NCBI GenBank assembly: GCA_963662665.2
Contig: CAXXJS010000010.1
Location: 288,001-352,000, forward strand
Reading direction: 5' to 3'
DNA length: 64,000 bases
From: Candidatus Latescibacterota bacterium
GTDB lineage: Bacteria; Latescibacterota; UBA2968; GCA-2709665
Shown: piece by piece, positions 6,401-21,805 of the stretch
Position numbering within the stretch: the first letter of the stretch is position 1
How the letters are laid out: each line of letters starts with the position of its first letter
Made by a program: the position numbers and the translations under genes
Notes under the pieces: model-generated
Databases searched by the model: none
What the model saw: only the letters and a program-made list of their open reading frames with translations
What the model was told of the DNA's origin: nothing

Positions 6401-6489
6401 CCGGCGAATGCACAGGCATCGGGGTTCCACGACAAATGGGATCGAGCAGCATCAGAATCGAACCTGCTCAAGATACGGAGCATAGAATC

Positions 6490-6864
6490 ATGAAATCTAA
6501 ACGCATTGACGTCACCGAGCGGATTCAGGATGGGACGGTTGTTGTCTCCGTCAGTGGCGATCCCGTCACCACAAGGGACGTGGCGCCGCTCCGACGCAAA
6601 TTAACTGACCTTGTAAACAGCGGCACTCGTACGGTAGTGGTCGACCTGTCGCACGTAGACCACGTCGGCGCCGCCATGCTTGGTGAACTGGCAACGGGAC
6701 TGAAGAGCACAAGAAACGCAGGCGGCGACCTGAAGCTGAGCGGCGTTTCCCGTCGGATCCGGAAGGTTCTTGCAGTGACGAGACTCTCGCGCATTTTCAA
6801 GTATGCAGGGGCGGGAAGCGGTACGCAGGATGCCGGCCATCGTAGCGTAAAAAAGGTGGCTTGA
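6490..6864 (+). CDS. STAS-domain anti-sigma-factor antagonist-like protein
   Basis: VVVDLSHVDHVGAAMLGEL...AGGDLKLSGVSRRIRKVLAVTRLSRIF. Confidence 0.85.
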   Translation: MKSKRIDVTERIQDGTVVVSVSGDPVTTRDVAPLRRKLTDLVNSGTRTVVVDLSHVDHVGAAMLGELATGLKSTRNAGGDLKLSGVSRRIRKVLAVTRLSRIFKYAGAGSGTQDAGHRSVKKVA

Positions 6865-6888
6865 AACCTCAAGGGGTGGAAATCCGTT
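6862..6888 (+). promoter_or_regulatory. Candidate ECF-sigma promoter
   Basis: TGAAAC-N17-CGTT upstream of the gene at 6930. Confidence 0.3.
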
Positions 6889-6929
6889 GCTTTTTGTCAA
6901 AGAGCGGGAATTCCTGTGGAGGGAACGGA

Positions 6930-7508
6930 ATGAGTTGGATACTGGAACTGGCGTTGGCCCTTTGCCTGCTGATGGTCGCGGGTGGATTCTCCGTTTATTT
7001 AATGACTCCCGGTAACAAAAAGCCGAGTGGATCCACGGTCGGGATTTTCCTGGCGGTTGCGGCCGTGGTGTTCGTGATCTGGGCATTCACTTCGGATCAT
7101 TGGAAACTGCTGCCTGATGCCAATGACATTCCTGCGCTTACCCTGGCCGGCAAGACCACCAACCTGCCGGACGAAGGCGTGACGCTATTCCTGGACAATC
7201 AAAGACGACTGGAATCAGCCGCAAAAAAACTCGAGGGAATTGCAGACCGGCTCGAGTTGGCTCAATCCGGAACGGGCCTCGGCATCGCAATGGAAATCGG
7301 CATCGGCATCTGCCTGATAATTTTTGCCGGGGGGATGGTGAGCTATATACACCTCAGGAAAAAAAGGGAAGGCAAGGGGATGAGTCCCGAACGGGCGAAA
7401 CGAATGGAATCGCGGCTGGACGCCGTGGACCAGCGCCTGAACGACCTCCAGGAGGTGATCATCACCCTGGATGAAAGGCTCAGGCGAAACAAAACCAACG
7501 TCACATAG
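6930..7508 (+). CDS. Membrane protein with C-terminal PspB-like module
   Basis: Three TM segments; C-terminus MEIGIGICLII...RLDAVDQRLNDLQEVIITLDERL aligns with the 6185 ORF. Confidence 0.7.
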   Translation: MSWILELALALCLLMVAGGFSVYLMTPGNKKPSGSTVGIFLAVAAVVFVIWAFTSDHWKLLPDANDIPALTLAGKTTNLPDEGVTLFLDNQRRLESAAKKLEGIADRLELAQSGTGLGIAMEIGIGICLIIFAGGMVSYIHLRKKREGKGMSPERAKRMESRLDAVDQRLNDLQEVIITLDERLRRNKTNVT

Positions 7509-7549
7509 ATCACGTTTGCTTTCTCGAGATTCACGATCGAATCCGAACA

Positions 7550-7576
7550 GGAATTAACGTGAATACAACTTCCGTT
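7550..7576 (+). promoter_or_regulatory. Candidate ECF-sigma promoter
   Basis: GGAATT-N17-CGTT just upstream of the 7595 RBS; shares TCCGTT with the 6862 site. Confidence 0.3.
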
Positions 7577-7594
7577 ATACAGAAAGGAAGACAC

Positions 7595-7771
7595 ATGCTC
7601 GCGAAAATTCTCGGCATCATCCTTATCGCCATCGGCGCGTACCTCGGTATTTTCGAAGTATTCAAACTCATCGGCATGTCGCTGGAAATCGTGTTCCTGC
7701 TCCTTAAACTGCTTGTGTCCTTTGTCCTGGTCTATGTGGGTTACCGGCTGCTTACCGGCGACTCCAGATAA
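7595..7771 (+). CDS. Small two-TM membrane protein, 58 aa (LiaI/PspG-like size and topology)
   Basis: RBS AAAGGAAG; almost entirely hydrophobic. Confidence 0.7.
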   Translation: MLAKILGIILIAIGAYLGIFEVFKLIGMSLEIVFLLLKLLVSFVLVYVGYRLLTGDSR

Positions 7772-7802
7772 TTCATCACCCTTTCGATAGGAATTCCCAT
7801 AA

Positions 7803-8378
7803 ATGAAAAACGAACGGCATCTGGTCCGGAGGGCCATCGAAGGTGACGCGGCTGCCTTCGGCGTCCTTTACAAGGCCTGCCATGAACAGATCTACGCGAC
7901 GATGGTACGAAGAACCAGCGATCCTGAAACCGCGCAGGATCTCGTGCAAACCGCGTTCCTGAGGGCATATACCGCCATGGGTTCCTACCGGGGAGAGGCC
8001 GCGTTTGCCACCTGGCTTACTCAGATCGCGCTGAACGTCCATAAATCTCACTACCGCAAACAGCAGGTGCGCCGGCGGTGGATAAAGGTAACTGAAGATC
8101 CTGCGGCACTTGCGGAAGCAACGCGGGTCCCCGCTCACGGCGAAAATCCGGAAATTTCGGCACAGCGGAACCAGAACCGCGACCTTGTCAGGAAGAGTAT
8201 TCGCGCATTGCCGGACAGGTATCGCACCGTCGTCTGGATGCGTTACGTCCGGGACTGGTCCTACGAGGAAATTACCCGGGAGTTGCAGATTCCCATGGGT
8301 ACCGTCAAGACCTGGCTCAACAGGGGAAGGTATCAATTGAAGGGCGAATTCCGAAAGCGGGGGTTGGTCCCGTCTTGA
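7803..8378 (+). CDS. ECF RNA polymerase sigma factor
   Basis: AQDLVQTAFLRAY, FATWLTQIALN, SYEEI...MGTVKTWLNRGR. Confidence 0.93.
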   Translation: MKNERHLVRRAIEGDAAAFGVLYKACHEQIYATMVRRTSDPETAQDLVQTAFLRAYTAMGSYRGEAAFATWLTQIALNVHKSHYRKQQVRRRWIKVTEDPAALAEATRVPAHGENPEISAQRNQNRDLVRKSIRALPDRYRTVVWMRYVRDWSYEEITRELQIPMGTVKTWLNRGRYQLKGEFRKRGLVPS

Positions 8379-8504
8379 CGTCGCTTTCCTCCTGATCCCG
8401 GCCGGACAGATTTCAGGGCCGGGAAGCCGTCGCAATCGAGGCCGACTCGCTCGCCACAGTGGTTCGGGGGGGAGTAGAGGACTCGGCATTCGCAAACGCC
8501 GGCG

Positions 8505-8523
8505 AAAACCCACTGGGTTTTTT
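8505..8523 (+). terminator. Possible weak intrinsic terminator
   Basis: AAAACCC-ACT-GGGTTTTTT. Confidence 0.3.
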
Positions 8524-8643
8524 GTTGACTCCGTCAGCGTTCTATGTCACATTTTCGAAGGGCGCATTACTGGACACGGACCCTCGGTAATCCGCGCGCA
8601 TTCCTTCGTATTCGAATTCCGAACCACGCATTGGGAGCGAGAT

Positions 8644-9240
8644 ATGGATGCCTGGTGGACGGATCTGACCACGCTCAACCAGATTCTCTACATCGTGGCG
8701 ATATTTTTCAGCGCGTTTTTCATCTGGCAACTCCTTGCGGTTTTGTTTGGGCTTGGAAACGTTTCGGACGCAGGGTTTTCCGGAGATACAAACCTCGGCG
8801 ACGCCGGTCCGGAGCTTAACGACGGTACGGTTGCTTCTTTCAAACTGCTATCTATCAGGTCCCTCATCGCGTTTGGCATGCTGTTCGGATGGGCGGGCGC
8901 CCTGTATCTGCAGAGAGGGTTGGATACTCAGACTGCCCTGCTCTACGCGCTTGTCTGGGGCAGCGCCGGCATGTTGGTCGTGGCCTATTTCTTCCGCGGT
9001 ATCCGGCAGCTTACCGAAACCGGAAACGCCAGCCTGGATACATGCGTAGGCACGGCGGGAGAGGTATATCTGGATATTCCCGAGGGAGGCGCCGGACAGG
9101 TACGGGTGTTGGAGAGTGGCGCGGTCACCTACGTATCCGCTCGCGGAAGAAACGGGATGCCGATTTCAGCCAAAACGCCGGTCCGCATTCTTCGTGTGGC
9201 GGATGCAACCACACTTGAGGTCGAGCCGATGGTGTCCTGA
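8644..9240 (+). CDS. NfeD-like membrane protein (YuaF type, C-terminal OB fold)
   Basis: N-terminal TMs, then VGTAGEVYLDIPEGGAGQVRV...VRILRVADATTLEVEP; directly upstream of flotillin. Confidence 0.85.
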   Translation: MDAWWTDLTTLNQILYIVAIFFSAFFIWQLLAVLFGLGNVSDAGFSGDTNLGDAGPELNDGTVASFKLLSIRSLIAFGMLFGWAGALYLQRGLDTQTALLYALVWGSAGMLVVAYFFRGIRQLTETGNASLDTCVGTAGEVYLDIPEGGAGQVRVLESGAVTYVSARGRNGMPISAKTPVRILRVADATTLEVEPMVS

Positions 9241-9392
9241 GTGATATCTGGTTTTAGTGCCTGTGTTTCCTGTATTTCCTTTCGTATCATCACGCCCAGG
9301 GATGAGACAGGAACGGGATTTCAACCCGAACGGGACTCGCTCCGGGACAGATTTCAACCAAAGGTGAAATTTCCAATCGGGGAGGGACAGCA

Positions 9393-10907
9393 ATGGCAAC
9401 TGAGACGATCCTGACAATTATACTGTTGTTGGTGGTATTTCTGCTCTTCGTGACGTTTATATCCAGGTACAAACGGTGTCCATCCAACAAAATACTGGTG
9501 GTTTACGGCAAGACCGGACAGGGGGCGGCAAAATGTGTTCACGGGGGCGCCGCATTCGTTCTTCCGCTCCTTCAGGACTATGAGTACCTGGACCTGGAGC
9601 CGTTTGTCACTCCCATAGACCTGGACAACGCCCTTTCACAGGAGAACATCCGCGTGTCCGTTCCCACAACCGTCACCGCGGCGGTTTCGAATCAGGCGGG
9701 CGTGATGCAGAACGCGGCAATTCGCCTGCTGGGTCTTTCGCGCGAACAGATCCAGAGCCAGGCACAGGATATCATCCTCGGTCAGATGCGGGCGGTGATT
9801 GCCACCATGGAAATCGAAGAAATCAACCGGGACCGGCAGGCTTTTATGTTCAAGGTCAACGAAGCGGTCTCTACCGAAATGGAGAAAATCGGCCTCGGCG
9901 TGATTAACGTGAACATCAAGGATATCGAAGACGAAAGCGGTTATATCAAAGCCCTCGGGCAAAAGGCCGCGGCCGAAGCCATCAACCAGGCGACCATTGA
10001 CGTTGCAGAGCAGGAGAAAATGGGCAAGGTGGGCGTGGCCGAGCGGGAACGGGACCAGCGCACGGACGTGGCCGCCGCACACGCGGCCGCGGATATCGGC
10101 GAGGCCGAAGCCGCCAGGGACCGGCGCCAGAGGGTCGCCGCACTCGAATCCGAAGCCCAGATCGGAGAGGCCGAGGCCACCAGAAACAAACGCCAGATGG
10201 TCTCTTCTCTGGATGCGGAAGCCGTCCAGGCGGAGGCCGAGGCCGAATCGAAAAAGGCCGGATACATGGCACAGCAGACAGTGGCCGAAGAGGTCGCGCG
10301 GCAAAAAGGACAGGAAGCCGCGAAGGCCGCGGACGGCGCCATTCGCGTCGCTCAGGAAAAGGCGGAAAAAGAGGCCGAGGAAGCCCGGGCTCTGCGCGAA
10401 GAGGCTCGGCTGAGAGCCGAAATTGTCGTACAGGCGGATGCACAAAAGCAGAAGCTGATCGTCCAGGCGGAAGCCGAGAAGGAGCAGCGGACGCTTGTGG
10501 CGCAGGGCGAGGCAGCCGCCATTCTGGCACAGCGGCGGGCCGAAGCCGAGGGCACGCAGGCCATCCTGGATGCCAAGGCGGAGGGCTACAAGGAGTTGGT
10601 TTCCGCATGCGGAGGCAAAGACCAGGCTGCCGCAGCCTTTCTCATCGTGGAACGCCTGACCGAGGTCGCCGGTATCCAGGCCGAAGCCATACAGAATCTG
10701 CCCCTGGATAAGATCGTGGTCTGGGACGGCGGCAACGGACAGGGTGGTATGTCCAACCTCGGTCAGCGCCTGATGGGCGCCATTCCGCCGATGCACGAAC
10801 TGGCCAAACTTGCGGGCCTTGAACTGCCGGAGTTCCTCGGTAGAATGACAGGCGAGACCAATCCGGGGGACGATCCTCCGGAGAGACCGGAAAGTCCATC
10901 GGAATAG
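9393..10907 (+). CDS. Flotillin (SPFH/Band 7) protein
   Basis: TM, SRYKRCPSNKILVVYGK, IILGQMRAVIATM, INVNIKDIED, Ala/Glu-rich coiled coil. Confidence 0.93.
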   Translation: MATETILTIILLLVVFLLFVTFISRYKRCPSNKILVVYGKTGQGAAKCVHGGAAFVLPLLQDYEYLDLEPFVTPIDLDNALSQENIRVSVPTTVTAAVSNQAGVMQNAAIRLLGLSREQIQSQAQDIILGQMRAVIATMEIEEINRDRQAFMFKVNEAVSTEMEKIGLGVINVNIKDIEDESGYIKALGQKAAAEAINQATIDVAEQEKMGKVGVAERERDQRTDVAAAHAAADIGEAEAARDRRQRVAALESEAQIGEAEATRNKRQMVSSLDAEAVQAEAEAESKKAGYMAQQTVAEEVARQKGQEAAKAADGAIRVAQEKAEKEAEEARALREEARLRAEIVVQADAQKQKLIVQAEAEKEQRTLVAQGEAAAILAQRRAEAEGTQAILDAKAEGYKELVSACGGKDQAAAAFLIVERLTEVAGIQAEAIQNLPLDKIVVWDGGNGQGGMSNLGQRLMGAIPPMHELAKLAGLELPEFLGRMTGETNPGDDPPERPESPSE

Positions 10908-10932
10908 ATAGGCTTGAAACAGGAATCGCCAA

Positions 10933-12561
10933 TTGAACAGACCCGAAATGCCGGACAACGCGCCGTCCACGGCCGACCGCATCGGTATCGCCCGGTCCCT
11001 TCCTGAATCCGGGAACGACGAAGCCCGGCGCCGTGGGCGCGCCGGCGATACCGCGATGGAAACCGGCGACCTCCGGAGCGCAGAGGCTGCCTACCGGGCT
11101 GCGTTAACTCTGGATGCCGACAATATCCGGGCGCGCCACAACCTGGGTGTGGTCCACTACAGGCAGGGCAAGTGGAGGGACGCACTGGACTGCTTTGCGC
11201 GTTGCCTGGGTCTCGCGTCCGATCGCAGCGCGGACCTGTATTTCAAGATTGGTCTCTGCCGGACAAGAGGGGGCGTCCAGGGAGCCATGCAGGCCTTTGA
11301 AGCCGTCATAGCAATCGATCCGGACCATCTTGAGGCGCAATTTCAATTGGCGCTCTTGCAGGCCGAAGGCGAGGAATCGGGTTCCCAGGGTCGGCAACAG
11401 GCGGTAGAAGCGCTTCGCTATATTCTCAAAGCCGTAGACCGGGGGGCGCCCTTCGCGAACGTGGACGGCACCTGCTTCCTGCTTGCCAGCTTCCTCGACG
11501 ACCTTCCGGAAAACATCGAAGAAGCAATCAGGGTTTACCGTCGCGGGCTGGAAGCGAATCCACTGTTCGCCCCCGGCCACAACAACCTTGGCGTTCTGCT
11601 CATGCAGACCGGCCAGACGCTCCAGGCTCTTGGCGCATTCAAAATTGCCATCCAACTCGAGCCGGACTATGCCCTGCCGTACAGGAACCTGGCGCATCTT
11701 CTTTTTGATCACGGTAGTTCAGCCCGGATGGAACAGGAATACACGTCCATCATTGAAGAATTCGGCGCAAAAGCGTCCTCGGTCCTGGCGCGCCTATCCC
11801 GTGAGCTCATCGACCTTGGACGTGTGCAGGTGGGAGAAAGCCTGTATACGCGCGGGCACCAGATCAAAAACCTGATGGGTCTGGTGGGGAGCCGTACGCG
11901 CCGGCTCATTCGAACGGTCCCGACGGAGGATTCGGTTCTCAACGACCTGAAAGGCATCGCCCGCGACCAGGAACACATCTACGATCAGTGGGTCGCCTAT
12001 CTGCGCAGCATGAAGCAGGACCCGCTCAATCCCTCTCTGGTGGATATTCCGCAATTAGTGGGCAAAATCAGGGAGGCCGTCTCTACCCGGACCGGCGCCA
12101 TCGCACTCCGTTTTGCATCTGAACCACAGGTTCCCCAGGTCAAGGTCGATCCCGGTATGTTGCGTGAAGCCGTTACCAACCTGATTCTAAACGCGCTGGA
12201 CGCCGTGAATGATCGTGGTGCGGTCACTGTACAGACCGGCTACGACAATAAGCGGGCATCGGTTTTCATCGAAGTGGAAGACGACGGACCCGGCATAACG
12301 GAAGAGATTCAGGCCAGGATATTCGATCCCGGTTTTTCCACCAAGGAAAAAGGCAACGGATTCGGTCTCAGCATCTGTTCCAGCATCGTATCCGCCCACA
12401 GAGGAAGCCTGCGCATGATCAGCCGCCCCGGCGCCGGCGCCGTGTTCCGTATCGATCTTCCCGTGGACTTCGAACTCGTCTCCGGTGCGGAAAGTATCGG
12501 CTGGAGCGGCGATCCGATTTCAGCGGCGCGGCTGCCCCTTGCAGAAGAATTCATCGAGTAA
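10933..12561 (+). CDS. Soluble TPR-repeat sensor histidine kinase
   Basis: TPRs (HNLGVVHY, HNNLGVLL); H-box GHQIKNLMG; NLILNALDA, EDDGPGI, FSTKEKGNGFGL; no TM segment. Confidence 0.88.
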   Translation: MNRPEMPDNAPSTADRIGIARSLPESGNDEARRRGRAGDTAMETGDLRSAEAAYRAALTLDADNIRARHNLGVVHYRQGKWRDALDCFARCLGLASDRSADLYFKIGLCRTRGGVQGAMQAFEAVIAIDPDHLEAQFQLALLQAEGEESGSQGRQQAVEALRYILKAVDRGAPFANVDGTCFLLASFLDDLPENIEEAIRVYRRGLEANPLFAPGHNNLGVLLMQTGQTLQALGAFKIAIQLEPDYALPYRNLAHLLFDHGSSARMEQEYTSIIEEFGAKASSVLARLSRELIDLGRVQVGESLYTRGHQIKNLMGLVGSRTRRLIRTVPTEDSVLNDLKGIARDQEHIYDQWVAYLRSMKQDPLNPSLVDIPQLVGKIREAVSTRTGAIALRFASEPQVPQVKVDPGMLREAVTNLILNALDAVNDRGAVTVQTGYDNKRASVFIEVEDDGPGITEEIQARIFDPGFSTKEKGNGFGLSICSSIVSAHRGSLRMISRPGAGAVFRIDLPVDFELVSGAESIGWSGDPISAARLPLAEEFIE

Positions 12562-13971: not shown

Positions 13972-14019
13972 CCACGCCCAATGATCCATAACGATCCCGG
14001 CAGTGAGGGTTTAGATTTG

Positions 14020-14058
14020 ACAATTGCCACTTGACGTCAATTGTAAATTTGATATATT
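14020..14058 (+). promoter_or_regulatory. Sigma70-like promoter with overlapping inverted repeat
   Basis: TTGACG-N16-TATATT with extended TG; ACAATTG (14020-26) and CAATTGT (14038-44) flank the -35. Confidence 0.5.
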
Positions 14059-14210
14059 CGTAGCGAGCCTCGTGCTTTGATGCATTCTGCATCTTTTCCG
14101 GTCCCGCATCTTCTGGCGGGAATCCTGCGGGTTCACAATCGGAACAGGATCACATATCCTGCCCCAATTGCTCTACAAGGAATTGGTCATCCGCTTAACT
14201 GGAAACAGGT

Positions 14211-15995
14211 ATGAGCGAAGCCGAAAACGGCCCATCCGGCCTGATCTTTCCCCAAGATGATTCAGAAGTTTCTCCCGCACAACAGTGCCTCGACGACGCT
14301 GGGTTTTCCAGTAACGATCAGGTGTGGTTGATACGGGTTCTTAATCGTTCGGACTGTTTTAGCAATTCCAGCGGCGTGTCCGTATTCCGGGCCGATTTCG
14401 CGGATGATTTCGCGCACCTCCTTCCCGGAGTCGTCAATCCGTTAAACGAGTCGGATCCTGCGGAGGACAGTAGGCAGACCCGCCTAGCGCTTCTCTTCAG
14501 TTTTCTGCTTGGCTTCGGACCTGTCCACAGTGAGGTGGTTCGCCCGAGCGACAGGCTGGTGAAATCGGGCGGGAACTGGGTTCTTCCCGACTGGGTCCGA
14601 GAGTTCCAAGGGTATGCGGAATTCTGCGCAGAACGTTTGAATTGGGACAAGCTCGTGGCAATAAGGAACGCGTGCCCATTCCTGTTCTTTGATCTTGTTC
14701 CATTTCTGTTTCCACACGGCCTGCCGTTGGGTCAGGTCGTGAATCTGGATATGTTGGATCCGATTCGACGGGAGGGATGGTCCAGCGCAGATTTTGAAGA
14801 CCCTGATCAGCTCGAATTCTGGCTCAAATGGCGTTTTGCCGCAGACTCTGAACGTCGCGATAAAATAAAGATAAACACCCTGCAAGAGTCGTTTTCCGAT
14901 TTTCCGGACGATGTACTGGGCGACAGGATTCTCGGCCTTCTCAATGGAATCTCATATTCGATGAGCATTGGCTTTGCATTGGGTACGGTGAGTATGAATC
15001 CGGCGGGTGACGGATGGCGGGTGGTCGCAAATGAGCTGGTTCCGTTCCTTGACCTCGTGAATGAAAAACGGCCGGAATCGATTCAGGGACGTTCATCCTT
15101 GCTTAATGCATGGTGGCGGTTGGCAGTAGTAATACACCACAGAGGTATGGGAGCGTTAGACTCCGGTATTTCCGATGAACTGAGAAATCGGCTTGTGGAC
15201 AGCGCTGCCAGACAAATCGGCATGTTGCGGAAGGTGCTGCGGGAGTCGCCTGAAGACTTTGGGTGTTCGGATTCGACTGGCGCTCCCGTTGCCGATTTCT
15301 ACGAAAAGGCCTTCGAGGTGCTGGTCGTTTTCGCCGCTCCCTGGAAGTGTTTGAGGTCCGTATTGCTGGCGTTCTCGGAGATGCGGGTCCCTTCCGTTGC
15401 ATCCGACCTTCGTCCGTGGCCGGAAGCTGACAGAGAGCCTCCACCTCATCCCTTCAGTCAAATCCCAATGTGGATCGCAACTGCAATGTATCCGCAGAAT
15501 CTTCGGGATGAACTCAAGCGAGATCCGCATCTGCTGGAATTGCGTGAAGCATTTGCCAAATTCTGCCTTGACCGGCTCAAAACCAGGAAAATTCGGTGCC
15601 AGCAGGATGTTAACCGGTCTGATTGTGCAGACGAAGGGTTTATTGAACCGCGTCGAACGTGGAGACGGTGCTACGTTCAGGCGGTGGTGGCATTGCGTGT
15701 CAATCCGGGCGGACGGGCGCACAGAACGCTCTTCTGGCTCTCCAGGAACGATCCCGATGAAACAGTTCGCGCACTCGCAACAAGGGCGCATCGACAGATT
15801 CGCCATCTCAACCGGAACAGGCCGAATCTGGATCGGGGCGCCTCGCCTCGGCGGCCGCTATTCGAAGCCTTCTGGTGGCTTCGCCAGGCGCATCTTCTAA
15901 CACTTGGAATAGAGATAGATGAAGCCGGGGCCAGCCGAACTCGACGAACGGAATTGCATCGGACACGAGAGAAGGATGATCTCCTCAACTGGTAA
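14211..15995 (+). CDS. Hypothetical 594-aa helical protein with HEAT-like C-terminal region
   Basis: Long ORF; NDPDETVRALA HEAT-like motif; W/R-rich tail SPRRPLFEAFWWLRQAH. Confidence 0.75.
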   Translation: MSEAENGPSGLIFPQDDSEVSPAQQCLDDAGFSSNDQVWLIRVLNRSDCFSNSSGVSVFRADFADDFAHLLPGVVNPLNESDPAEDSRQTRLALLFSFLLGFGPVHSEVVRPSDRLVKSGGNWVLPDWVREFQGYAEFCAERLNWDKLVAIRNACPFLFFDLVPFLFPHGLPLGQVVNLDMLDPIRREGWSSADFEDPDQLEFWLKWRFAADSERRDKIKINTLQESFSDFPDDVLGDRILGLLNGISYSMSIGFALGTVSMNPAGDGWRVVANELVPFLDLVNEKRPESIQGRSSLLNAWWRLAVVIHHRGMGALDSGISDELRNRLVDSAARQIGMLRKVLRESPEDFGCSDSTGAPVADFYEKAFEVLVVFAAPWKCLRSVLLAFSEMRVPSVASDLRPWPEADREPPPHPFSQIPMWIATAMYPQNLRDELKRDPHLLELREAFAKFCLDRLKTRKIRCQQDVNRSDCADEGFIEPRRTWRRCYVQAVVALRVNPGGRAHRTLFWLSRNDPDETVRALATRAHRQIRHLNRNRPNLDRGASPRRPLFEAFWWLRQAHLLTLGIEIDEAGASRTRRTELHRTREKDDLLNW

Positions 15996-16002
15996 GCCTG
16001 GT

Positions 16003-16039
16003 TGGTGTATGACAACACTGTAGTTGGTGAATTACACCA
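16003..16039 (+). promoter_or_regulatory. Tandem PspF-like UAS upstream of the micropeptide gene
   Basis: TGGTG-TATGA-CAACA (16003-17) and perfect TGGTG-AATTA-CACCA (16025-39), 22 bp apart. Confidence 0.6.
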
Positions 16040-16113
16040 GATGCAGGCAAAAAGCCAATGAATATATTCCTATAAAATAAATATTATTAATAACTTATTT
16101 ACATAATGTCTGA

Positions 16114-16130
16114 TTGGCATAGTTCTTGTA
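16114..16130 (+). promoter_or_regulatory. Variant sigma54 promoter (GG-N10-GT)
   Basis: TTGGCATAGTTCTTGTA, preceded by IHF-like TATTAATAACTTA (16085-97). Confidence 0.55.
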
Positions 16131-16228
16131 GTTGGAGACATTGCACGATGAACCGGGTCGCTACTCAACTGCGGAAGTACAGTGTCCCCCTGAAACGGCC
16201 CAATTCCACGACAAAGGAGGTGACGCCA

Positions 16229-16378
16229 ATGGCCAAATCACGCGGGAATCGTTCGAGTGGAAACCGGAGCGGAGGTAATGGCGGAAACGCTCGCGTTGCC
16301 AACCTGCCAAGCAAAACCGGAAACCCTTCCGGGCCTCGCCGCGGCAATGCGCCGCCCAGAGGAGCAAAGAGCAAATGA
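16229..16378 (+). CDS. 49-aa Gly/Asn/Arg/Ser-rich basic micropeptide
   Basis: Perfect RBS AAAGGAGGTGA; MAKSRGNRSSGNRSGGNGGNARVANLPSKTGNPSGPRRGNAPPRGAKSK. Confidence 0.75.
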   Translation: MAKSRGNRSSGNRSGGNGGNARVANLPSKTGNPSGPRRGNAPPRGAKSK

Positions 16379-16585
16379 CGCACCGGCAGGGGTTGGCCGC
16401 TGATCGGCCTTGATGTCAATCGGCTAAACCCTGCACCAACATTTCGTTTTGCCAGATGCGTCGCACTTCGAGGCTAAATAGCCTCACGCCTGATCCCGCC
16501 GGGATTGTGCTACGACGCATCCTTTCATGACAGCGTGGATTGGAAATCTCGTCCCTGTAACGTCATTTCGTGAAAGGATATACAA

Positions 16586-18178
16586 ATGGAACTCCGTTTT
16601 CTAGGCGGTGCCGATGAGGTCGGCGCTTCGTGTACGTTAATTGAAATCGATGGTCAACGTATTCTGGTGGACGCCGGCATTCGCATGGGCCCCAGTAACA
16701 ATTCAAAGTGGCCTGGTGTCGGTAATATGGACAAGATTGACGCTCTGTTGCTGACCCATGCGCATTCCGATCACACGGGTTCGCTGCCACTGCTTGCAAA
16801 GGAGAACATATTACCCGAAAAGGTATATTGTACCCATCCGACAAAACAGATTACACAGGTGTTGTTGGAAGATGCCCTAAAACGGGTAGAAAAGAGCAGG
16901 TCACCTGAGTACACTTCCGATCACGCGAGTTGCGCTTTAAGCCGAATGTCATCGGTGAGTTGGATGGAACCCGTACAAGTGAGCGACTGCGCAAAAGCTA
17001 CGTGGATTCCCGCCGGGCATATTCTGGGTGCGGGAATGATCTATCTCGAGGGCAAACAGGATAGCATACTGGTGACGGGTGACGTGTCTGGTGACGATCA
17101 GTTGACGATTCCCGGCATAGTTATCCCCGAGTGGTGTCGGCCCGACGTGATCGTGATGGAATCGACATATGGTAATCGACAACATAAGGATCGCGCTTGT
17201 CAAGAAAACGCCCTTGTTCAGCACGTAACCAGGGTGACTGAAGCCGGCGGCAGAGTGTTAATTCCTGCGTTCGCCGTGGGGCGATCTCAAGAGGTTATTC
17301 TGGTTCTCAAGGATAGCCTTGAACGGAGACAGATTCCGTTGTACGTTGACGGGATGGTGCGAAGGTTAAATGACGTGTATTCACGTAGCGTACCCGACCT
17401 CAAGCCATCTTTGCAATGCAGAGCGATCGGGGGAGGCGACATTTTTTATTCAGATTTCGTAAGAAAAGTGGAATCTAGGGATCATCGCGAACGTATTTTG
17501 TCGGGTCCACCTTGTTGTATTGTAGCATCTTCCGGGATGTTGAACGGTGGTGTGTCGAATGCATATGCCGGACATTTTGCTGGTGATCCGGAGAACCTGA
17601 TCGCAATTGTGGGCTATCAGGGGGAAGGTACGCCTGGGCGTGCGCTGGTGAATCTGTCAAAGGCAAAAGAACTTGAAGAGCGGAAGTGGAAATTGAGCCA
17701 GAAGGAGTATGTGAACGTGAGGTGCGAAGTGAAGGAATACTCGCTTTCGGCGCACGCGGACCGGATGAAATTGACGGAATTGGTCGAGAGACTGAGTCCG
17801 AAAAAATGCTTTCTCGTACACGGTGATGACTCTGCACGGAAAGGATTGGCCGAATCCGTGCGAAATTCGTCTCCAACCGTGGACGTGCGACTTCCCGAAA
17901 ATGGCCGGACATATACCTACACGAAGAGAGCAGGCATCACGAATGGAAAACAGTTTGGCAATTATAGAATTCTCGCTGAACTTAATTCTTATCTGCAAAA
18001 GATAGGGGCGACGGGGCCATTTCGCGCGCGGGATTTGGCCGAGTATTGGTTCGGCACGGAAGCGACGACGCTCTTTGAGGAGAAGCTGTTTCAATTGTTT
18101 CTGACGTTGGATCGGCAGGAGGTCTTTGTTCGGGACCGCCAATCTCCTCATCTTTTCCGTCTGGGATGGATTGTGTAG
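16586..18178 (+). CDS. MBL-fold beta-CASP nuclease (CPSF73/YSH1-like) with C-terminal extension
   Basis: LGGADEVGAS, THAHSDH, AGHILG, MESTYG, PAFAVGRSQE, SSGML, SAHAD, LVHG. Confidence 0.9.
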   Translation: MELRFLGGADEVGASCTLIEIDGQRILVDAGIRMGPSNNSKWPGVGNMDKIDALLLTHAHSDHTGSLPLLAKENILPEKVYCTHPTKQITQVLLEDALKRVEKSRSPEYTSDHASCALSRMSSVSWMEPVQVSDCAKATWIPAGHILGAGMIYLEGKQDSILVTGDVSGDDQLTIPGIVIPEWCRPDVIVMESTYGNRQHKDRACQENALVQHVTRVTEAGGRVLIPAFAVGRSQEVILVLKDSLERRQIPLYVDGMVRRLNDVYSRSVPDLKPSLQCRAIGGGDIFYSDFVRKVESRDHRERILSGPPCCIVASSGMLNGGVSNAYAGHFAGDPENLIAIVGYQGEGTPGRALVNLSKAKELEERKWKLSQKEYVNVRCEVKEYSLSAHADRMKLTELVERLSPKKCFLVHGDDSARKGLAESVRNSSPTVDVRLPENGRTYTYTKRAGITNGKQFGNYRILAELNSYLQKIGATGPFRARDLAEYWFGTEATTLFEEKLFQLFLTLDRQEVFVRDRQSPHLFRLGWIV

Positions 18179-18202
18179 GCTTGGTTTAGAATGCAGTGAC
18201 CC

Positions 18203-18225
18203 GCCCCGGCGATCATCGCCGGGGC
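18203..18225 (+). repeat. Palindromic hairpin (terminator- or REP-like)
   Basis: GCCCCGGCGAT-C-ATCGCCGGGGC after the nuclease stop. Confidence 0.5.
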
Positions 18226-18595: not shown

Positions 18596-18928
18596 TTGAG
18601 GCTACCCAACGCCCAACGGGCTCGCGTTGACCCGGCGAAGATTACTGACTATTTGCTTTCAGCAAGTCATCCGGATGGTCGGGAAAAGGCTAAGTTCTTT
18701 TTCAACTTCGGCTTTTTCCCAGCACAATGGCAGAGTCTTTCGGAAGCGTTACGACTTCACGGAGCGAGCCATGAAGCTGTCGAGAAGGAGCAAGGGATCT
18801 ACGGTATAAAGTATATTGTGGATGGATCGCTTGAGACTCCCGATGGACGCAACCCTTACGTACGGACCGTCTGGCACATCGACAGGGAAAGCGACTATCC
18901 AAGGTTCATTACGGCATATCCGGCCTGA
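18596..18928 (+). CDS. DUF6883-like putative toxin domain
   Basis: LPNAQRARVDPAKITDYLLSASHPDGREKAKFF...VRTVWHID...PRFITAYP. Confidence 0.75.
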   Translation: MRLPNAQRARVDPAKITDYLLSASHPDGREKAKFFFNFGFFPAQWQSLSEALRLHGASHEAVEKEQGIYGIKYIVDGSLETPDGRNPYVRTVWHIDRESDYPRFITAYPA

Positions 18929-18944
18929 TCGTTAGGAGACAGAT

Positions 18945-19286
18945 ATGTTCAAGGAACTGGACGTTATAGCGCTTACAGCCGAAGTTCCGCCCAATCACAT
19001 TTGGGATGTCCCATCCAGCAGCCCGCTGATTGAGAAACGCAATCCGGCGGAAGGGCTGAAAGTCGGCGACATTGGCACGATTGTATATGTCCAGGGTAAC
19101 GGGGAAGCCCTTGAGGTTGAATTCCTGGGTCCGGAAGGCAAGACGATAGGCGTTGCCACGATCTCGCCATCGCAGGCCCGCCTGGCCACGGAAGAAGACC
19201 TCACAAAACGATCTCTTCTGAAAAAAGCTGGCAGTCCGGCCTTATCACGGCCTCACGGTAGATTGAGAAAGCGAAAGCCTGTTTGA
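18945..19286 (+). CDS. DUF4926-domain protein (putative antitoxin/immunity)
   Basis: FKELDVIAL...GLKVGDIGTIVYV...EVEFLGPEGKT. Confidence 0.8.
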   Translation: MFKELDVIALTAEVPPNHIWDVPSSSPLIEKRNPAEGLKVGDIGTIVYVQGNGEALEVEFLGPEGKTIGVATISPSQARLATEEDLTKRSLLKKAGSPALSRPHGRLRKRKPV

Positions 19287-20173
19287 GTACTGTGAATTCA
19301 TCGCACTCACCAGCCTAGGGTTCGTCTTGAGGTCGAGTGTTTTACGCACAAGCGCGGAGCCGCCAGCCTCTAGCCCTGCGGAGGACCAGAAAGAGGGGCT
19401 TCTTCGACGCTCAGGTGAATCCGATTGCAGGGGAGGTACTATGAACATTATCGTATTCGGCGCGGCAGGTTGGCTTGGAAGGGCGGCGCTGGCCGCTCTT
19501 GACGCGAACCATCGGGTAAGGGCTTTCGACTATGGTCCGAGGGCCTGGAAAGCCTGGAACGATACCGACGGTGAATGGGCGGGGGGTGACATCGTTCACG
19601 GAGATATCGTGGATTTCGATGCCGTTCACCGTGCCGTGGCGGGCATGGACTCGGTATTGCACATGGCGGTGTACCATTCGGACGCGCCCGGCGCCCACGG
19701 TGTCGATGATCGGAAACCTTTTCTGATCAACGTCAAGGGACTCTGGAACGTTCTTGAATCCGCCCGGCGGCACGGCATCGGGAGGATCGTACATATCGGC
19801 TCCTGTCAGACCGCCCACCCGGGGGGCATCTTCTTCTCGGCCGACGTCAGGCGGCCCGACGGCGGCCTATATGGTGTCACCAAACGGCTTCAGGAAGAGA
19901 TGTGCCGGCAGTTCCACGATGCGTTCGGGCTGCGTATCATCGTTCTCCGGCCTGACTACATTGTTGACAGCCGACTCGGGATCGGCCGGTACAGAGAAAA
20001 ATTGGGTACGGAAGAGCGTCCTTACCGCCAGGGCTGGGTGTGCCGCCACGACCTTGCCGAAGCATGCCGCCTGAGCCTGGAATCTCAGGACATCGATTTC
20101 GACGTTTTCCACGTCGTGGGGACGCCGGGGGCCGACAGGACTTGCAACGTCGCGCGGTCCCGCGAGATTCTAG

Positions 20174-21805
20174 GAGTCTGCGCCGCAGGAAAATTCATTT
20201 CAATGGACATGTAGTTGTAGGTATAATGGGTCGTGTAGTTGGTATATGTCAAGGGTATCGTTGTGTGTTATGTCAGGGGAGGGAGCGATCCATGCCGACA
20301 ACGTTTCGACCGTATCACCCGGACCAGATATTGCTGTTGGCGCCGGATCTTCGGGAGTGGGTGCCTGAAGGTCATCTGTCGCACCAGGTGAGCGATCTGG
20401 TGGATTCCCTGGATCTGGGGTCGTTCTACGCGCCCTATGAAGGCGATGGTCGTCGCAACGCGCCATATGATCCATCGATGATGTTGAAGGTATTGATCTA
20501 TGGGTACGCGACGGGAGTGTATTCGTCTCGAGCGATCGCTGGGAAGCTGGAGGAGGACGTGGCGTTTCGTATGTTGGCGGCGGGCAATTTCCCACAACAC
20601 CGGACGATCTGCGAGTTTCGGCGTCGTCACCTGGAAGATTTCGGGCGTTTGTTCGTGGAGGTGGTTGGTGTGGCACGGGAGATGGGCCTGGTACGTTTCG
20701 GGACGTTATCTTTAGACGGCACGAAGGTACGAGCGAAGGCCAGCAAGCGCAAGGCCATGAGTTACGAGCGGATGTTGAAGGAACAGGCTCGTCTGGAGAA
20801 AGAGATCGGGGCGTTGCTTTCGGGTGCTGTGTCGATTGATGCCGAGGAGGATGCACGTTACGGCGTGGATGTTCGTGGCGACGAGTTGCCGGTCGAGTTG
20901 CAGCGCAGGCAGGCTCGTCTGGCGGCGATCAGGGCGGCGAGGGAGCGTCTGGAAGCATCGCAACGAGCCGTCGACGATGCGCGCGGGCGCAAACCGGGTC
21001 AGAAGCGCAACCCGAAGGGCGGGCGGCCTTACAAAAGAGCCTATGGCGAGCCCGACCCGAAGGCTCAGAGCAACTTCACGGACCCCGAGTCTCGGATCAT
21101 GAAGACGAGCGCGGAGGGGTTCCAGCAGTGCTACAACGCGCAGACGGTGGTGGACGCCGAGCGTCAGATCATCGTGGCTGTGCATCTGGGGTCACAGGCC
21201 ACCGATCAGGGCTTTATGCTCCCCTTGCTGGATGGTGTGCAAGAGACATTCGGGGTCAAGCCGGACGCGGTTCTGGCGGATGCGGGCTACTGCAACGAGG
21301 AGGACCTGGCCACGCTTGAGGAGCGTGGCATTGATGGTTACGTGGCGCTGGGGCGGGAGGGCAAGGAAAAGGTGGACGTCGATTCGGAGACGCTTCCGGC
21401 GACCCATCGCATGGGCGAGAAGCTCACCAGCCCGGAAGGTCGGGGCCTGTATGCGAAGCGCAAGTGGCTCTCGGAGGCGCCCAACGGATGGATCAAGGAG
21501 GTATTGGGCTTCCGGCGCTTCAGCTTCCGGGGGCTGGAAAAGGTGCGTGCCGAGTGGGATCTGGTCTGCCTCGCGTTGAACGTCAAGCGGATGGCAGCGT
21601 TGTCGATGTGTTGAAGCATGGGTTCGGGTGTCCTGTCCTTATGGACTCGACATACGGGAAACCACGATCCCTGGAATCTCGCCCTCAACACGCCTGCCTG
21701 CAACGATCACCGTACCCAAAACTCATCATACCACTCCCAACATAACGACCAACCCGACTCACGGACACACCTCGCCCTTTGTAAAAACTCCTGCGGCGCA
21801 GACTC
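20174..21805 (+). mobile_element. IS1182-family insertion sequence
   Basis: Perfect 17-bp TIR GAGTCTGCGCCGCAGGA; CTAG duplicated at 20170-73 and 21806-09. Confidence 0.93.
20292..21614 (+). CDS. IS1182-family transposase
   Basis: YDPSMMLKVLIYGY, LDGTKVRAKAS, NFTDPESRIMK, LADAGY, GFRRFSFRGLEKV. Confidence 0.93.
   Translation: MPTTFRPYHPDQILLLAPDLREWVPEGHLSHQVSDLVDSLDLGSFYAPYEGDGRRNAPYDPSMMLKVLIYGYATGVYSSRAIAGKLEEDVAFRMLAAGNFPQHRTICEFRRRHLEDFGRLFVEVVGVAREMGLVRFGTLSLDGTKVRAKASKRKAMSYERMLKEQARLEKEIGALLSGAVSIDAEEDARYGVDVRGDELPVELQRRQARLAAIRAARERLEASQRAVDDARGRKPGQKRNPKGGRPYKRAYGEPDPKAQSNFTDPESRIMKTSAEGFQQCYNAQTVVDAERQIIVAVHLGSQATDQGFMLPLLDGVQETFGVKPDAVLADAGYCNEEDLATLEERGIDGYVALGREGKEKVDVDSETLPATHRMGEKLTSPEGRGLYAKRKWLSEAPNGWIKEVLGFRRFSFRGLEKVRAEWDLVCLALNVKRMAALSMC

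What the first reader, a model, noticed from the sequence alone, without database searches (positions are those of the whole stretch)
14020..18225. Candidate new PSP-linked module: 594-aa HEAT-like protein, sigma54-driven 49-aa micropeptide and beta-CASP nuclease
Seen: right after the PspF-like activator are three co-oriented genes. The middle one is a tiny disordered basic peptide (core NLPSKTGNPSGPRRGNAPP) with a perfect Shine-Dalgarno and its own enhancer-type promoter. The 594-aa protein has no family I recognise and sits behind a sigma70 promoter with an overlapping operator. The third gene is a CPSF73-like nuclease with an extra C-terminal domain. Inference: a stress- or phage-triggered unit in which the peptide is the induced output (ligand, RNA binder or modified precursor) acting on the helical protein and/or the nuclease. 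I recall similar PS(K/T)TGNPSG..RGN small proteins among unannotated ORFs but could not verify this.
Basis: partly seen in the sequence, partly recalled or inferred. Interest (0 to 1): 0.85.

Follow-up and report, generated by a model that had tools for sequence, protein, structure and literature searches.

The report
Mobile defence cassette with RNA-gated nuclease
The three genes form a horizontally moving cassette in which an unknown 594-residue helical protein and a tiny basic protein come before an exchangeable antiviral-type enzyme, here an RNA-cutting nuclease, whose ribosome-binding site is hidden by a previously undescribed folded RNA leader.

Summary
The three genes, the Shine-Dalgarno site and the promoter-like motifs are all present. 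The link to phage-shock (PSP) is not supported. The upstream activator is an NtrC-type response regulator and a core gene. The segment at about 13976-18201 is an insertion that is missing from seven same-genus genomes.

The 594-aa protein (p594) defines a family with no annotation. It is patchy in the phylum, found in 19 of 168 genomes.

In 42 close loci the layout is the same:
- a sigma70-like promoter;
- a structured leader-1;
- p594;
- usually a small hydrophilic protein (intact in 33 of 42);
- a structured leader-2;
- one exchangeable enzyme: prokaryotic viperin, the B12 radical-SAM protein PDC-M51A, a beta-CASP nuclease or a glycosyltransferase.

Leader-2 is a three-way junction followed by an anti-Shine-Dalgarno helix, and both parts covary. 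It occurs in exactly the genomes that carry p594. Neither leader matches any Rfam family.

Synonymous codon variation shows that the small ORF is under selection as a protein. A sigma54-type motif sits about 104-123 nt upstream of it in several lineages. In this window its -12 GC reads GT.

Best reading: a defence-type cassette whose effector is kept off at translation. How p594 and the peptide act is inferred, not shown.

The parts
13976..18201 (+). Inserted cassette as a whole: present here, absent at the same site in same-genus genomes
   Evidence: The empty site L067 aligns to the window up to 13975 and again from 18202. L065-L071 have the activator followed directly by DUF6883/DUF4926 and/or the epimerase gene.
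14031..14058 (+). Sigma70-type promoter-like site TTGACG-16-TATATT; a palindrome at 14022-14049 overlaps the -35
   Evidence: The -35 TTGACA keeps its position ahead of leader-1 in most of the 36 aligned upstream regions. The palindrome is not conserved there.
14062..14216 (+). Leader-1: structured 5' leader of the p594 gene. A closing stem and two hairpins lie at about 14065-14146.
   Evidence: MAFFT alignment of 32 loci: 20 predicted pairs, 14 of them with changes on both sides. Model R2 scores 114.4 bits, E 2e-21, here and hits 41 of 43 sources. The single-sequence fold is not significant, z -0.89.
14211..15995 (+). p594: all-helical protein of an unannotated family, with an acidic N-terminal third and a basic, most conserved C-terminal part
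   Evidence: Searches give no family. AF2 gives pLDDT 81 and pTM 0.80. Only noise-level HEAT/ARM likeness was found, best Z 8.1. Residues 1-200 have pI 4.3 and residues 461-594 have pI 11.2. Family size.
16115..16130 (+). Sigma54-type promoter-like motif TGGCAT-N5-TTGTA, with -12 GT instead of GC
16160..16228 (+). Conserved leader of the small ORF: a short hairpin, then the SD AAAGGAGGTGA at 16213-16223
   Evidence: Alignment of 24 loci: 7 predicted pairs, 4 with changes on both sides, weak energy. The window's own fold is not significant, z +0.48.
16229..16378 (+). Small basic hydrophilic protein, 49 aa, pI 12, of type A (motif PSKTGNPSG..RGNAPP)
   Evidence: Conserved residues are written with 2 to 6 synonymous codons across 20 loci. 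The family has 783 hits.
16430..16593 (+). Leader-2. The three-way junction is at 16454-16522. The anti-SD CCUUUC at 16521-16526 pairs with the SD GAAAGG at 16572-16577 of the nuclease gene, whose ATG is at 16586.
   Evidence: R1 scores 151.2 bits. R3 scores 82.7 bits on the core. Pair counts. Compensated anti-SD/SD variants. The window's own fold gives -49.7 kcal/mol and z -3.96 with the same helices.
16586..18178 (+). Beta-CASP metallo-beta-lactamase nuclease of the CPSF73/aCPSF1/INTS11 type, with about 100 extra C-terminal residues: the effector of this copy
   Evidence: The HxHxDH motif can be read in the translation.
18203..18225 (+). Terminator-like hairpin that belongs to the host flank, not to the cassette
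   Evidence: The stretch is shared with the empty site L067.

Best explanation
Window 13976-18201 is one copy of a horizontally mobile, defence-type cassette.

Shown:
- The fixed front end is a sigma70-type promoter, a structured leader (leader-1), the p594 gene and, usually, a well-translated small hydrophilic protein.
- The back end is an exchangeable enzyme gene. In this copy it is a CPSF73-like beta-CASP nuclease. In relatives it is prokaryotic viperin (with or without a nucleotide kinase), the B12 radical-SAM protein PDC-M51A, or a family-2 glycosyltransferase.
- Each such gene follows its own copy of leader-2.
- Leader-2 is a three-way-junction RNA whose 3' tail pairs with the enzyme's Shine-Dalgarno sequence.

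Inferred:
- The enzyme is made only when leader-2 is opened.
- The opener is an infection-linked signal read through p594, whose basic conserved C-terminal part would bind the leaders, or read directly by the junction as a ligand pocket.
- The small basic protein assists or buffers this step.
- In some lineages, this genus included, an internal sigma54-type promoter adds transcriptional induction of the small ORF and the enzyme gene.
For: 1. Insertion. The cassette is absent at the same site in seven same-genus genomes. p594 occurs in 10 of 41 relatives and in 19 of 168 genomes of the phylum, 5 of 49 genera. Close copies sit in Latescibacterota and Poribacteria records, and one close protein is named Gemmatimonadetes by its source.

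2. Exchangeable effector. The ORF after the 42 leader-2 matches is viperin-like in 15, beta-CASP in 15, B12 radical SAM in 10, glycosyltransferase in 1 and the small ORF in 1 weak match.
- Representatives match PADLOC pVip at 5e-91 to 2.5e-117 and PDC-M51A at 7e-93.
- One passes the cut-off of NCBIfam viperin_w_prok, 312.7 against 180.
- On a p594 tree of 37 rows the first effector type changes at least 17 times. The first ten of 200 label shuffles gave 16-19.

3. The link holds for distant family members with 27-40% identity. Among 58 ORFs downstream of them, 7 are pVip, 6 PDC-M51A, 3 beta-CASP, 3 GT2 and 2 thymidylate-kinase-like.

4. Leader-2 structure.
- 94.1% of cells are paired, against 85.9% in shuffles.
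- 20 of 29 pairs show double changes, reached by 0 of 500 shuffles.
- Slid partners pair in 32-54% of cells.
- All six anti-SD/SD pairs covary. Examples are CUCCUC with GAGGAG and CCCAUC with GAUAGG.
- The window's own fold gives z -3.96.

5. Leader-2 occurs in exactly the 10 of 41 genomes that hold p594, once each and beside it. It occurs once in the own genome.

6. Leader-1 has 14 of 20 pairs with double changes on a structure-blind alignment.

7. The small ORF is selected as a protein. It recurs in 33 of 42 close loci and, as types A or C, in the distant loci L092/L093, L109 and L116.

8. Beta-CASP nucleases have a defence precedent as Cas14 of type VII CRISPR-Cas. The NCBIfam cas14 model matches at 4e-81, below its cut-off. 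Only the search listing and abstract starts of PMC12669027 and PMC13069675 were seen.
Against: - No experiment or RNA data exist. No RNA run holds the stretch, so transcription, 5' ends and induction are untested.
- p594, the small protein and this beta-CASP gene match no PADLOC model. The defence label therefore rests on the neighbours of relatives.
- The pair counts were made on an alignment fitted to the model, which favours the structure. The structure-blind 10-sequence alignment shows only 2 of 29 pairs with double changes.
- Nothing shows that p594 binds RNA. Its fold matches are at noise level.
- Leaders were not detected beside distant family members. The RNA layer may be specific to one subfamily.
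- The small ORF is absent or broken in 9 of 42 loci, so it is dispensable.
- The loci are related and come mostly from two phyla, so the counts are not independent events.
Confidence: 0.6

Rival explanations
1. This is a PSP or envelope-stress output unit driven by the adjacent sigma54 activator. The 49-aa peptide is the induced product and acts on p594 and/or the nuclease.
For: - PspA, STAS, an ECF sigma factor, flotillin, a TPR histidine kinase and the activator lie upstream.
- A sigma54-type motif sits 114-122 nt before the small ORF in all three same-genus loci.
- Similar motifs lie at 104-114 nt in six other loci.
Against: - The activator has a receiver domain, so it is not PspF-like.
- It is a core gene in 15 of 15 genomes and is followed directly by the flank genes where the cassette is absent.
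- In G022 and G026 it lies more than 1 Mb from p594.
- Of the 41 related loci (L022-L062) searched, only the same-genus locus L022 has such a gene within about 6 kb.
- This window's own -12 element reads GT.
- In 12 of the 34 loci tabulated the small ORF starts 55-66 nt after the p594 stop, and none of these has a GG-N10-GC motif scoring 8 or more.
Confidence: 0.1
2. A peptide natural-product (RiPP) cluster. The small ORF is a precursor that is modified by the radical-SAM enzyme or glycosyltransferase and trimmed by the metallo-hydrolase. p594 is a scaffold or recognition protein.
For: - All ten loci whose slot holds the B12 radical-SAM gene have a type A trace. It is intact in eight, truncated in L030 and absent in L056.
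- The conserved motif is often present in two tandem copies.
- The B12 radical-SAM protein gives weak matches to RiPP C-methyltransferase models, TIGR03975 at 4.8e-12, far below the cut-off.
Against: - The same small ORF precedes viperin, an enzyme that acts on nucleotides by established knowledge (recalled), and precedes beta-CASP nucleases.
- The enzymes replace one another rather than co-occurring.
- The small ORF has three unrelated C-terminal types and is missing in 6 of 42 loci.
- In distant loci it lies after the enzyme gene.
- No protease, transporter or recognition-element family was found.
Confidence: 0.07
3. Leaders 1 and 2 are riboswitches for a small molecule such as a nucleotide-related metabolite. 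The cassette is a metabolite-controlled nucleotide- or RNA-processing unit without a role in immunity, and p594 is not the regulator.
For: - The leader-2 core is a 69-nt closing stem with two hairpins and conserved junctions, joined to an SD-hiding helix. This layout is common among translational riboswitches (recalled).
- It is conserved independently of which enzyme follows.
Against: - No Rfam family matches, even at E up to 10.
- The enzymes it controls have no pathway in common apart from being known or candidate antiviral effectors.
- It co-occurs strictly with p594.
- The distribution is patchy and mobile.
Confidence: 0.15
4. The conserved non-coding blocks are DNA recombination sites for cassette exchange, in the manner of integron attC sites, and not RNA regulators.
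For: - The exchange point of the third gene coincides with the 3' end of leader-2 at the start codon.
- Some loci carry two copies, one before each enzyme gene.
Against: - The anti-SD/SD pairs covary with the ribosome-binding site of the following gene. That is a constraint at the mRNA level.
- All copies lie on the coding strand.
- No integrase or recombinase family recurs in the neighbourhoods.
- There are no terminal repeats at the insertion ends.
Confidence: 0.04

Closest known systems
Prokaryotic viperin (pVip) defence genes, alone or with a nucleotide kinase
   Same: In 14 of 41 close loci, and beside distant family members, the exchangeable slot holds a bona fide pVip, often followed by a thymidylate-kinase-like gene. 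The viperin-kinase linkage is described in 10.1101/2023.09.13.557418 (passages read). Linkage of pVip with HicA and RelE RNases is described in 10.1101/2023.12.08.570793 (passages read).
   Different: This window has no viperin. The fixed partner p594, the small protein and the structured leaders are not mentioned in the passages read. pVip is treated there as a one- or two-gene system.
PADLOC candidate system PDC-M51 (A: B12 radical SAM; B: kinase-like)
   Same: The B12 radical-SAM gene that follows leader-2 in 10 loci matches PDC-M51A at 7e-93. The kinase-like gene matches PDC-M51B at 6.5e-27.
   Different: PADLOC-DB 2.0.0 has no model for p594 or the small protein. A full-text search for the name found no paper.
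Cas14, the beta-CASP ribonuclease of type VII CRISPR-Cas, and archaeal aCPSF1 / eukaryotic CPSF73 and INTS11
   Same: The catalytic architecture is the same: Lactamase_B, Beta-Casp and RMMBL domains. The closest solved chains match at E 6e-63 to 1e-51. The cas14 model matches at 4e-81 and the aCPSF1 model at 1.7e-90.
   Different: Both equivalog cut-offs are missed: 273 against 800 and 304 against 580. The match to aCPSF1 chains starts at their residue 182-192, so the N-terminal part of those proteins is absent here. The window has no cas genes or repeats next to the gene. About 100 C-terminal residues are unmatched.
Translational riboswitches and protein-binding mRNA leaders that hide the Shine-Dalgarno sequence
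   Same: A junction-type fold is followed by an anti-SD helix whose pairs covary.
   Different: No Rfam family matches. The ligand or binding protein is unknown. The element moves as part of a mobile cassette and precedes unrelated enzymes.
Conserved regulators found in front of many different defence systems, such as the WYL-type BrxR/CapW (recalled, not checked here)
   Same: One fixed gene sits in front of diverse, exchangeable effector genes.
   Different: p594 has no detectable DNA-binding or WYL domain. Control here appears to be at the RNA level.

Membership tests
Psp (phage-shock) regulon with a PspF-type activator | The activator lacks a receiver domain and has only the AAA+ sigma54 and HTH domains (recalled definition) | tested here: not met
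   Response_reg matches residues 5-112 at E 1e-21, alongside Sigma54_activat and HTH_8.
Psp (phage-shock) regulon with a PspF-type activator | The target genes stay linked to the activator across genomes | tested here: not met
   Linked only in 3 genomes of one genus. The activator is more than 1 Mb away in G022 and G026, and the cassette is absent from 7 genomes that keep the activator.
Sigma54-dependent promoter | GG at -24 and GC at -12, spaced GG-N10-GC (recalled consensus TGGCAC-N5-TTGC) | tested here: inconclusive
   The window has GG-N10-GT. The full GG-N10-GC stands at the same place in L014 and L022 and at 104-114 nt before the small ORF in six further loci. Overall 8 of 42 loci carry such a motif, against about 3 expected.
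Beta-CASP nucleases of the metallo-beta-lactamase superfamily | Lactamase_B, Beta-Casp and RMMBL domains above the Pfam cut-offs, and the HxHxDH motif | tested here: met
   76.8, 49.1 and 46.1 bits against cut-offs of 27.7, 21.6 and 22.7. The motif can be read in the translation.
aCPSF1 and Cas14 equivalogs | Full-length match above the NCBIfam cut-off | tested here: not met
   304.1 against 580.2, and 273.2 against 800.
HEAT/ARM repeat proteins (p594) | Match to a HEAT/ARM sequence family, or a fold match well above background | tested here: inconclusive
   No Pfam family. No Foldseek match at E<=1e-3. Best VIA Z is 8.1, within the range the tool gives as common for helical repeats. The Atlas gives HEAT_2 leads at 0.88-0.89 only.
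Known anti-phage defence systems (PADLOC-DB 2.0.0) | The proteins of this window match a system model | tested here: not met
   0 families for p594, the 49-aa protein and the nuclease. Only the enzymes of relatives match, as pVip and PDC-M51A/B.
Rfam RNA families (leaders 1 and 2) | Match at the gathering score, or any match at E<=10 over the element | tested here: not met
   0 matches in the whole window at the gathering score. In 15990-16600 only three chance-level rows appear, for animal RNA families. Leader-1 was covered only by the gathering scan.
RiPP biosynthetic cluster | A precursor peptide constantly linked to its maturase | tested here: not met
   The same small ORF precedes viperin, beta-CASP or radical-SAM genes interchangeably and is absent in 6 of 42 loci.
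Integron-type gene cassette | An integrase next to an array of attC-bounded cassettes | tested here: not met
   No recombinase family recurs among the neighbours. The element lies 5' of the gene and covaries with its SD.

The most novel reading that the evidence does not exclude
p594 is an RNA-binding immune sensor. It uses dedicated three-way-junction leaders to hold translation of self-toxic antiviral enzymes (viperin, B12 radical SAM, beta-CASP RNase) in check until infection. That would be a bacterial counterpart of induced, interferon-style viperin expression. It would be built from a new protein family, two new RNA motifs and a widespread micro-protein cofactor.
Probability: 0.22. Interest if true: 0.9.

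Novelty: new variant of a known kind. Interest (0 to 1): 0.78.

Why it matters
- Prokaryotic viperins and similar nucleotide-modifying effectors are usually treated as one- or two-gene systems, and their control is unknown. Here a large unannotated protein family is tied to viperin, PDC-M51A, beta-CASP nucleases and glycosyltransferases. The family has 471 clusters at 50% identity. The tie holds down to about 30% identity.
- In one subfamily two structured RNAs, absent from Rfam, hide the effector's ribosome-binding site.
- This gives a directly testable model for how toxic immune enzymes are kept silent. It offers two candidate RNA motifs for Rfam.
- It suggests a role outside CRISPR for beta-CASP nucleases in defence.
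- It gives a first genomic context for a small-protein family with hundreds of members.

Tried and rejected
- Complex prediction of p594 with the 49-aa protein gave no answer, score 0.00. It is not used as evidence either way.
- Sequencing runs: no RNA holder is listed.
- Fold searches. For whole p594, Foldseek gave nothing at E<=1e-3 and VIA gave a best Z of 8.1 to HEAT/ARM proteins. For the N-terminal 205 residues (pLDDT 73) the best Z was 6.0, to dynein fragments. A PDB profile search gave only E 0.26. No fold assignment is made.
- Protein Atlas: weak HEAT leads below 0.9, recognition 1609. Lead only.
- Pfam on ten distant family members: 0 families. Pfam on the type A, B and C small proteins: nothing but one chance row.
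- tblastn of a type A small protein against plasmids and phages: no match, though the low-complexity filter may be the cause.
- The p594 family occurs in only 3 viral contigs.
- Leaders beside distant family members. R1 and R2 hit only the close loci L081-L083. By eye the spacers of L079 and L123 fold like leader-2, but the core model R3 does not find them. This is a lead only.
- Homology between leader-1 and leader-2 is not shown. With filters off, R3 gives only 9.3 bits, E 0.24, on one hairpin of leader-1.
- Ends of the insertion: no terminal direct or inverted repeats.
- The 90-aa reading of the small ORF from 16106 is rejected. The conserved SD and the relatives' N-termini fit the start at 16229.
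- Literature searches:
  - the motif strings: 0 papers;
  - viperin with riboswitch: nothing relevant;
  - Poribacteria with viperin: 1 unrelated paper;
  - PDC-M51: 0 papers;
  - beta-CASP with anti-phage: only the type VII CRISPR papers and one unrelated preprint.
- Supplementary tables of the viperin papers could not be opened and may list neighbours that include this family.

Full report
**What is in the window.**
- Three co-oriented ORFs follow the activator gene: p594 at 14211-15995, a 49-aa ORF at 16229-16378, and a 530-aa ORF at 16586-18178.
- The 49-aa start is preceded by AAAGGAGGTGA at 16213-16223.
- p594 has no hit in Pfam, PADLOC, NCBIfam or PHROGs.
- The 530-aa protein has Lactamase_B, Beta-Casp and RMMBL domains that end at residue 428.
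- Its closest solved relatives are aCPSF1-type proteins, INTS11 and CPSF73, at E 6e-63 to 1e-51.
- It misses the NCBIfam cut-offs for aCPSF1 and for Cas14 of type VII CRISPR-Cas.
- A sigma70-type site, TTGACG-16-TATATT, lies at 14031-14058. A palindrome overlaps its -35.
- The sigma54-like motif at 16115 is TGGCAT-N5-TTGTA. Its -12 GC reads GT, and 2-mismatch matches are no more frequent in the window than in shuffles.

**The neighbourhood and the PSP claim.**
- The upstream activator has a receiver domain as well as the sigma54 AAA+ and HTH domains. It is therefore an NtrC-type response regulator, paired with a TPR histidine kinase, and not PspF-like.
- PspA lies 9 kb upstream at 4578-5366, with STAS and ECF sigma genes in between.
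- The activator is present in 15 of 15 genomes searched.
- In seven same-genus genomes it is followed directly by the DUF6883/DUF4926 pair or by the epimerase gene.
- Alignment with such an empty site puts the ends of the extra DNA at about 13976 and 18201. No terminal repeats were found.
- In G022 and G026 the activator and p594 are more than 1 Mb apart.
- Of the 41 related loci (L022-L062) searched, only the same-genus locus L022 has such an activator within reach.
- So the three genes are an inserted cassette, and their position next to the activator is local to one genus.

**Distribution of p594.**
- It is found in 10 of 41 relatives: 2 of 14 other genomes of the own genus and 7 of 16 genomes of a genus in another family.
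- It is found in 19 of 168 genomes of the phylum, 5 of 49 genera, as a single copy each.
- The word-indexed search gave 413 proteins at E<=1e-3 among 8000 scored candidates. The 120 listed share 54% identity or more, and none has a Pfam domain.
- Record titles name Latescibacterota and Poribacteria MAGs and one Planctomycetota MAG. One close protein is named Gemmatimonadetes by its source.
- A profile search of 1.84 billion representatives gave 471 clusters at E<=1e-3, 221 of them at E<=1e-30. The conserved part is roughly residues 260-590.
- Ten distant members have no Pfam family.
- Only 3 viral contigs encode a relative.

**The third gene is exchangeable.**
- In the nine loci first fetched, the gene after p594 and the small ORF was one of three kinds: a beta-CASP nuclease, a radical-SAM protein, or a B12-binding radical-SAM protein.
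- PADLOC names these pVip (5e-91 to 2.5e-117) and PDC-M51A (7e-93). A thymidylate-kinase-like neighbour matches PDC-M51B/VakA.
- The viperin passes the cut-off of NCBIfam viperin_w_prok.
- Over the window and L022-L061 (41 sources), beta-CASP occurs in 21, viperin in 14 and the B12 radical-SAM gene in 10. The kinase-like gene occurs in 8 and a family-2 glycosyltransferase in 1. No other gene family recurs with the cassette.
- On a p594 tree of 37 rows the type of the first enzyme changes at least 17 times. The first ten of 200 label shuffles gave 16-19, so the enzyme type is essentially uncoupled from p594 descent (the rows left out are listed under Tried and rejected).
- The link extends to distant family members found in metagenome contigs. 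Of 58 ORFs downstream of them, 13 are radical SAM (7 pVip, 6 PDC-M51A), 3 beta-CASP, 3 GT2, 2 thymidylate-kinase-like and 4 DUF4258. These counts include near-duplicate contigs and three ORFs that I added by motif.

**Leader-2.**
- The spacer between the small ORF and the third gene is 77-82% identical in DNA across all nine loci, whatever gene follows.
- RNAalifold predicts a closing stem with two hairpins. Directly after them, CCUUUC pairs with the GAAAGG Shine-Dalgarno sequence of the third gene.
- A covariance model gave 42 matches in 37 of 43 sources, all on the coding strand. Four loci carry a second copy, in front of a second enzyme gene.
- On the model-fitted alignment 94.1% of cells pair, against 85.9% in shuffles. 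20 of 29 pairs show double changes, reached by 0 of 500 shuffles. Slid partners pair in only 32-54% of cells. That alignment leans towards the structure.
- The structure-blind 10-row alignment has 2 of 29 compensated pairs.
- The anti-SD and SD change together, for example CUCCUC with GAGGAG and CCCAUC or CUUCAUC with GAUAGG.
- The window's own sequence folds into the same helices at -49.7 kcal/mol, z -3.96.
- Leader-2 occurs once in the own genome. It occurs in exactly the 10 of 41 relatives that carry p594.
- Rfam has nothing, either at the gathering score for the whole window or at E<=10 for 15990-16600.

**Leader-1 and the small-ORF leader.**
- Upstream of p594, a conserved -35 TTGACA and a -10-like box are followed by a conserved transcript leader.
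- On a MAFFT alignment of 32 loci it forms a closing stem with two hairpins. Of its 20 pairs, 14 are compensated.
- Its model hits 41 of 43 sources. Extra copies lie before p594 remnants (L029, L030), downstream of p594 (L048, L050), or separated from p594 by an inserted transposase gene (L058).
- The 60 nt before the small ORF are also conserved, with a short hairpin of 7 pairs, 4 of them compensated and with weak energy.
- Homology between leader-1 and leader-2 is not shown.

**The small protein.**
- Of 42 close loci (the window, L014 and L022-L061), 33 have an intact small ORF, 3 a damaged one and 6 none.
- All share the N-terminus MAKSxGNRSGG and the SD AAAGGAGGTGA.
- The C-terminal part comes in three types:
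  - type A, as in the window, in 22 loci;
  - type B, with the motif NQLNPNN, in 7 loci;
  - type C in 2 loci.
- L022 has a type B and a type A ORF, and L014 has the two fused.
- Conserved residues are written with several synonymous codons: six for the invariant Arg and four for one Ser. This shows selection on the protein.
- The family has 783 members at E<=0.01 among 3888 candidates. They include proteins named from Lautropia, Acidovorax soli and a Euryarchaeota MAG, often with two motif copies.
- Types A and C also occur in the distant loci L092/L093, L109 and L116, there after the enzyme gene.
- No paper holds the motif strings.

**The sigma54 motif.**
- In the two other same-genus loci the motif reads TGGCAT-N5-TTGCA at the same place.
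- GG-N10-GC motifs matching 8 to 10 of the 11 consensus positions lie 104-123 nt before the small ORF in L014, L022, L032, L033, L045, L051, L053 and L058.
- Within -100 to +700 nt of the p594 stop, 8 of 42 loci have a motif matching 9 or more of 11. The background is 0.074 per 800 nt, or about 3 expected.
- In 12 of the 34 loci tabulated the small ORF starts 55-66 nt after the p594 stop. None of these has a GG-N10-GC motif scoring 8 or more.
- So an internal sigma54-type promoter is a real but optional feature. In this window it is weakened at -12.

**p594 itself.**
- AF2 gives an all-helical model with pLDDT 81 and pTM 0.80.
- The matches to HEAT/ARM proteins are at the level the tool calls common for helical repeats. 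The N-terminal domain matches nothing clear.
- The N-terminal third is acidic, pI 4.3. The most conserved C-terminal 134 residues are basic, pI 11.2.
- That p594 binds the leaders, or binds the basic small protein, is inference.

**Mechanism and status of each step.**
- Shown: insertion and mobility; the fixed order of parts; exchange of the enzyme; RNA structure with a covarying SD-hiding helix; protein-level selection on the small ORF.
- Inferred from family knowledge: the enzymes are antiviral effectors. Viperin is by established work, which I recall rather than read in full. The passages read concern its kinase, HicA and RelE partners (10.1101/2023.09.13.557418 and 10.1101/2023.12.08.570793). 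The rSAM-containing Ophion system was read in 10.1101/2025.09.30.679545. Beta-CASP acts as Cas14, seen only in search listings.
- Inferred without a test: the effector is translationally silent until a signal opens leader-2; p594 or a small ligand is that signal's reader; the small protein assists.
- I put 0.6 on the cassette being a defence-type unit with a riboregulated, exchangeable effector. I put about 0.2 on the specific p594-binds-leader version.

**Comparison and novelty.**
- The kind is known: a modular defence cassette with swapped effectors, viperin among them.
- The fixed protein family, the two leaders and the small-protein partner are in none of the libraries searched, and in no paper found by the searches named under Tried and rejected.
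- Supplementary tables of the viperin papers could not be opened.

Noticed in passing
window 18596-19286: A DUF6883/DUF4926 gene pair directly after the cassette is itself present in only some same-genus genomes at this site. The gap between the activator and the epimerase gene is therefore a hotspot for accessory genes.
   Followed up: partly
window 20040-21614: DDE transposase ORF of 524 aa (DDE_Tnp_1, DUF772) just beyond the epimerase gene.
   Followed up: no
window 4578-12561: A cluster in envelope-stress style: PspA, a STAS protein, an ECF sigma factor, a 504-aa flotillin/SPFH protein and a TPR histidine kinase, ahead of the NtrC-type activator.
   Followed up: partly
L029 6079-6493 and L030 about 9933-10400: Downstream of the radical-SAM gene lies a second leader-1 copy, followed by a remnant of the p594 C-terminus with an in-frame stop. 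These look like decayed second cassettes.
   Followed up: partly
L058 4738-6001: Two leader-1 copies, then a 263-aa transposase-like ORF inserted between leader-1 and the p594 start.
   Followed up: no
L062 2374-8395: In a Planctomycetota MAG a distant p594 homologue is preceded by ORFs that look DprA-like and phosphoribosyltransferase-like to me by eye (no family scan was run on them). It is followed by an ORF I read by eye as a family-2 glycosyltransferase like that of L045 (GT2 families matched 3 of the 58 ORFs scanned; per-member hits were not listed).
   Followed up: partly
L079 6727-6770 and L123 5806-5852: Spacers before the enzyme gene in distant loci fold by eye into a closing stem with two hairpins like leader-2, but the core model does not detect them.
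   Followed up: partly
P0146, P0205, P0184 (proteins): Small proteins made of two tandem copies of the type A motif occur in Lautropia, Acidovorax soli and a Euryarchaeota MAG.
   Followed up: no
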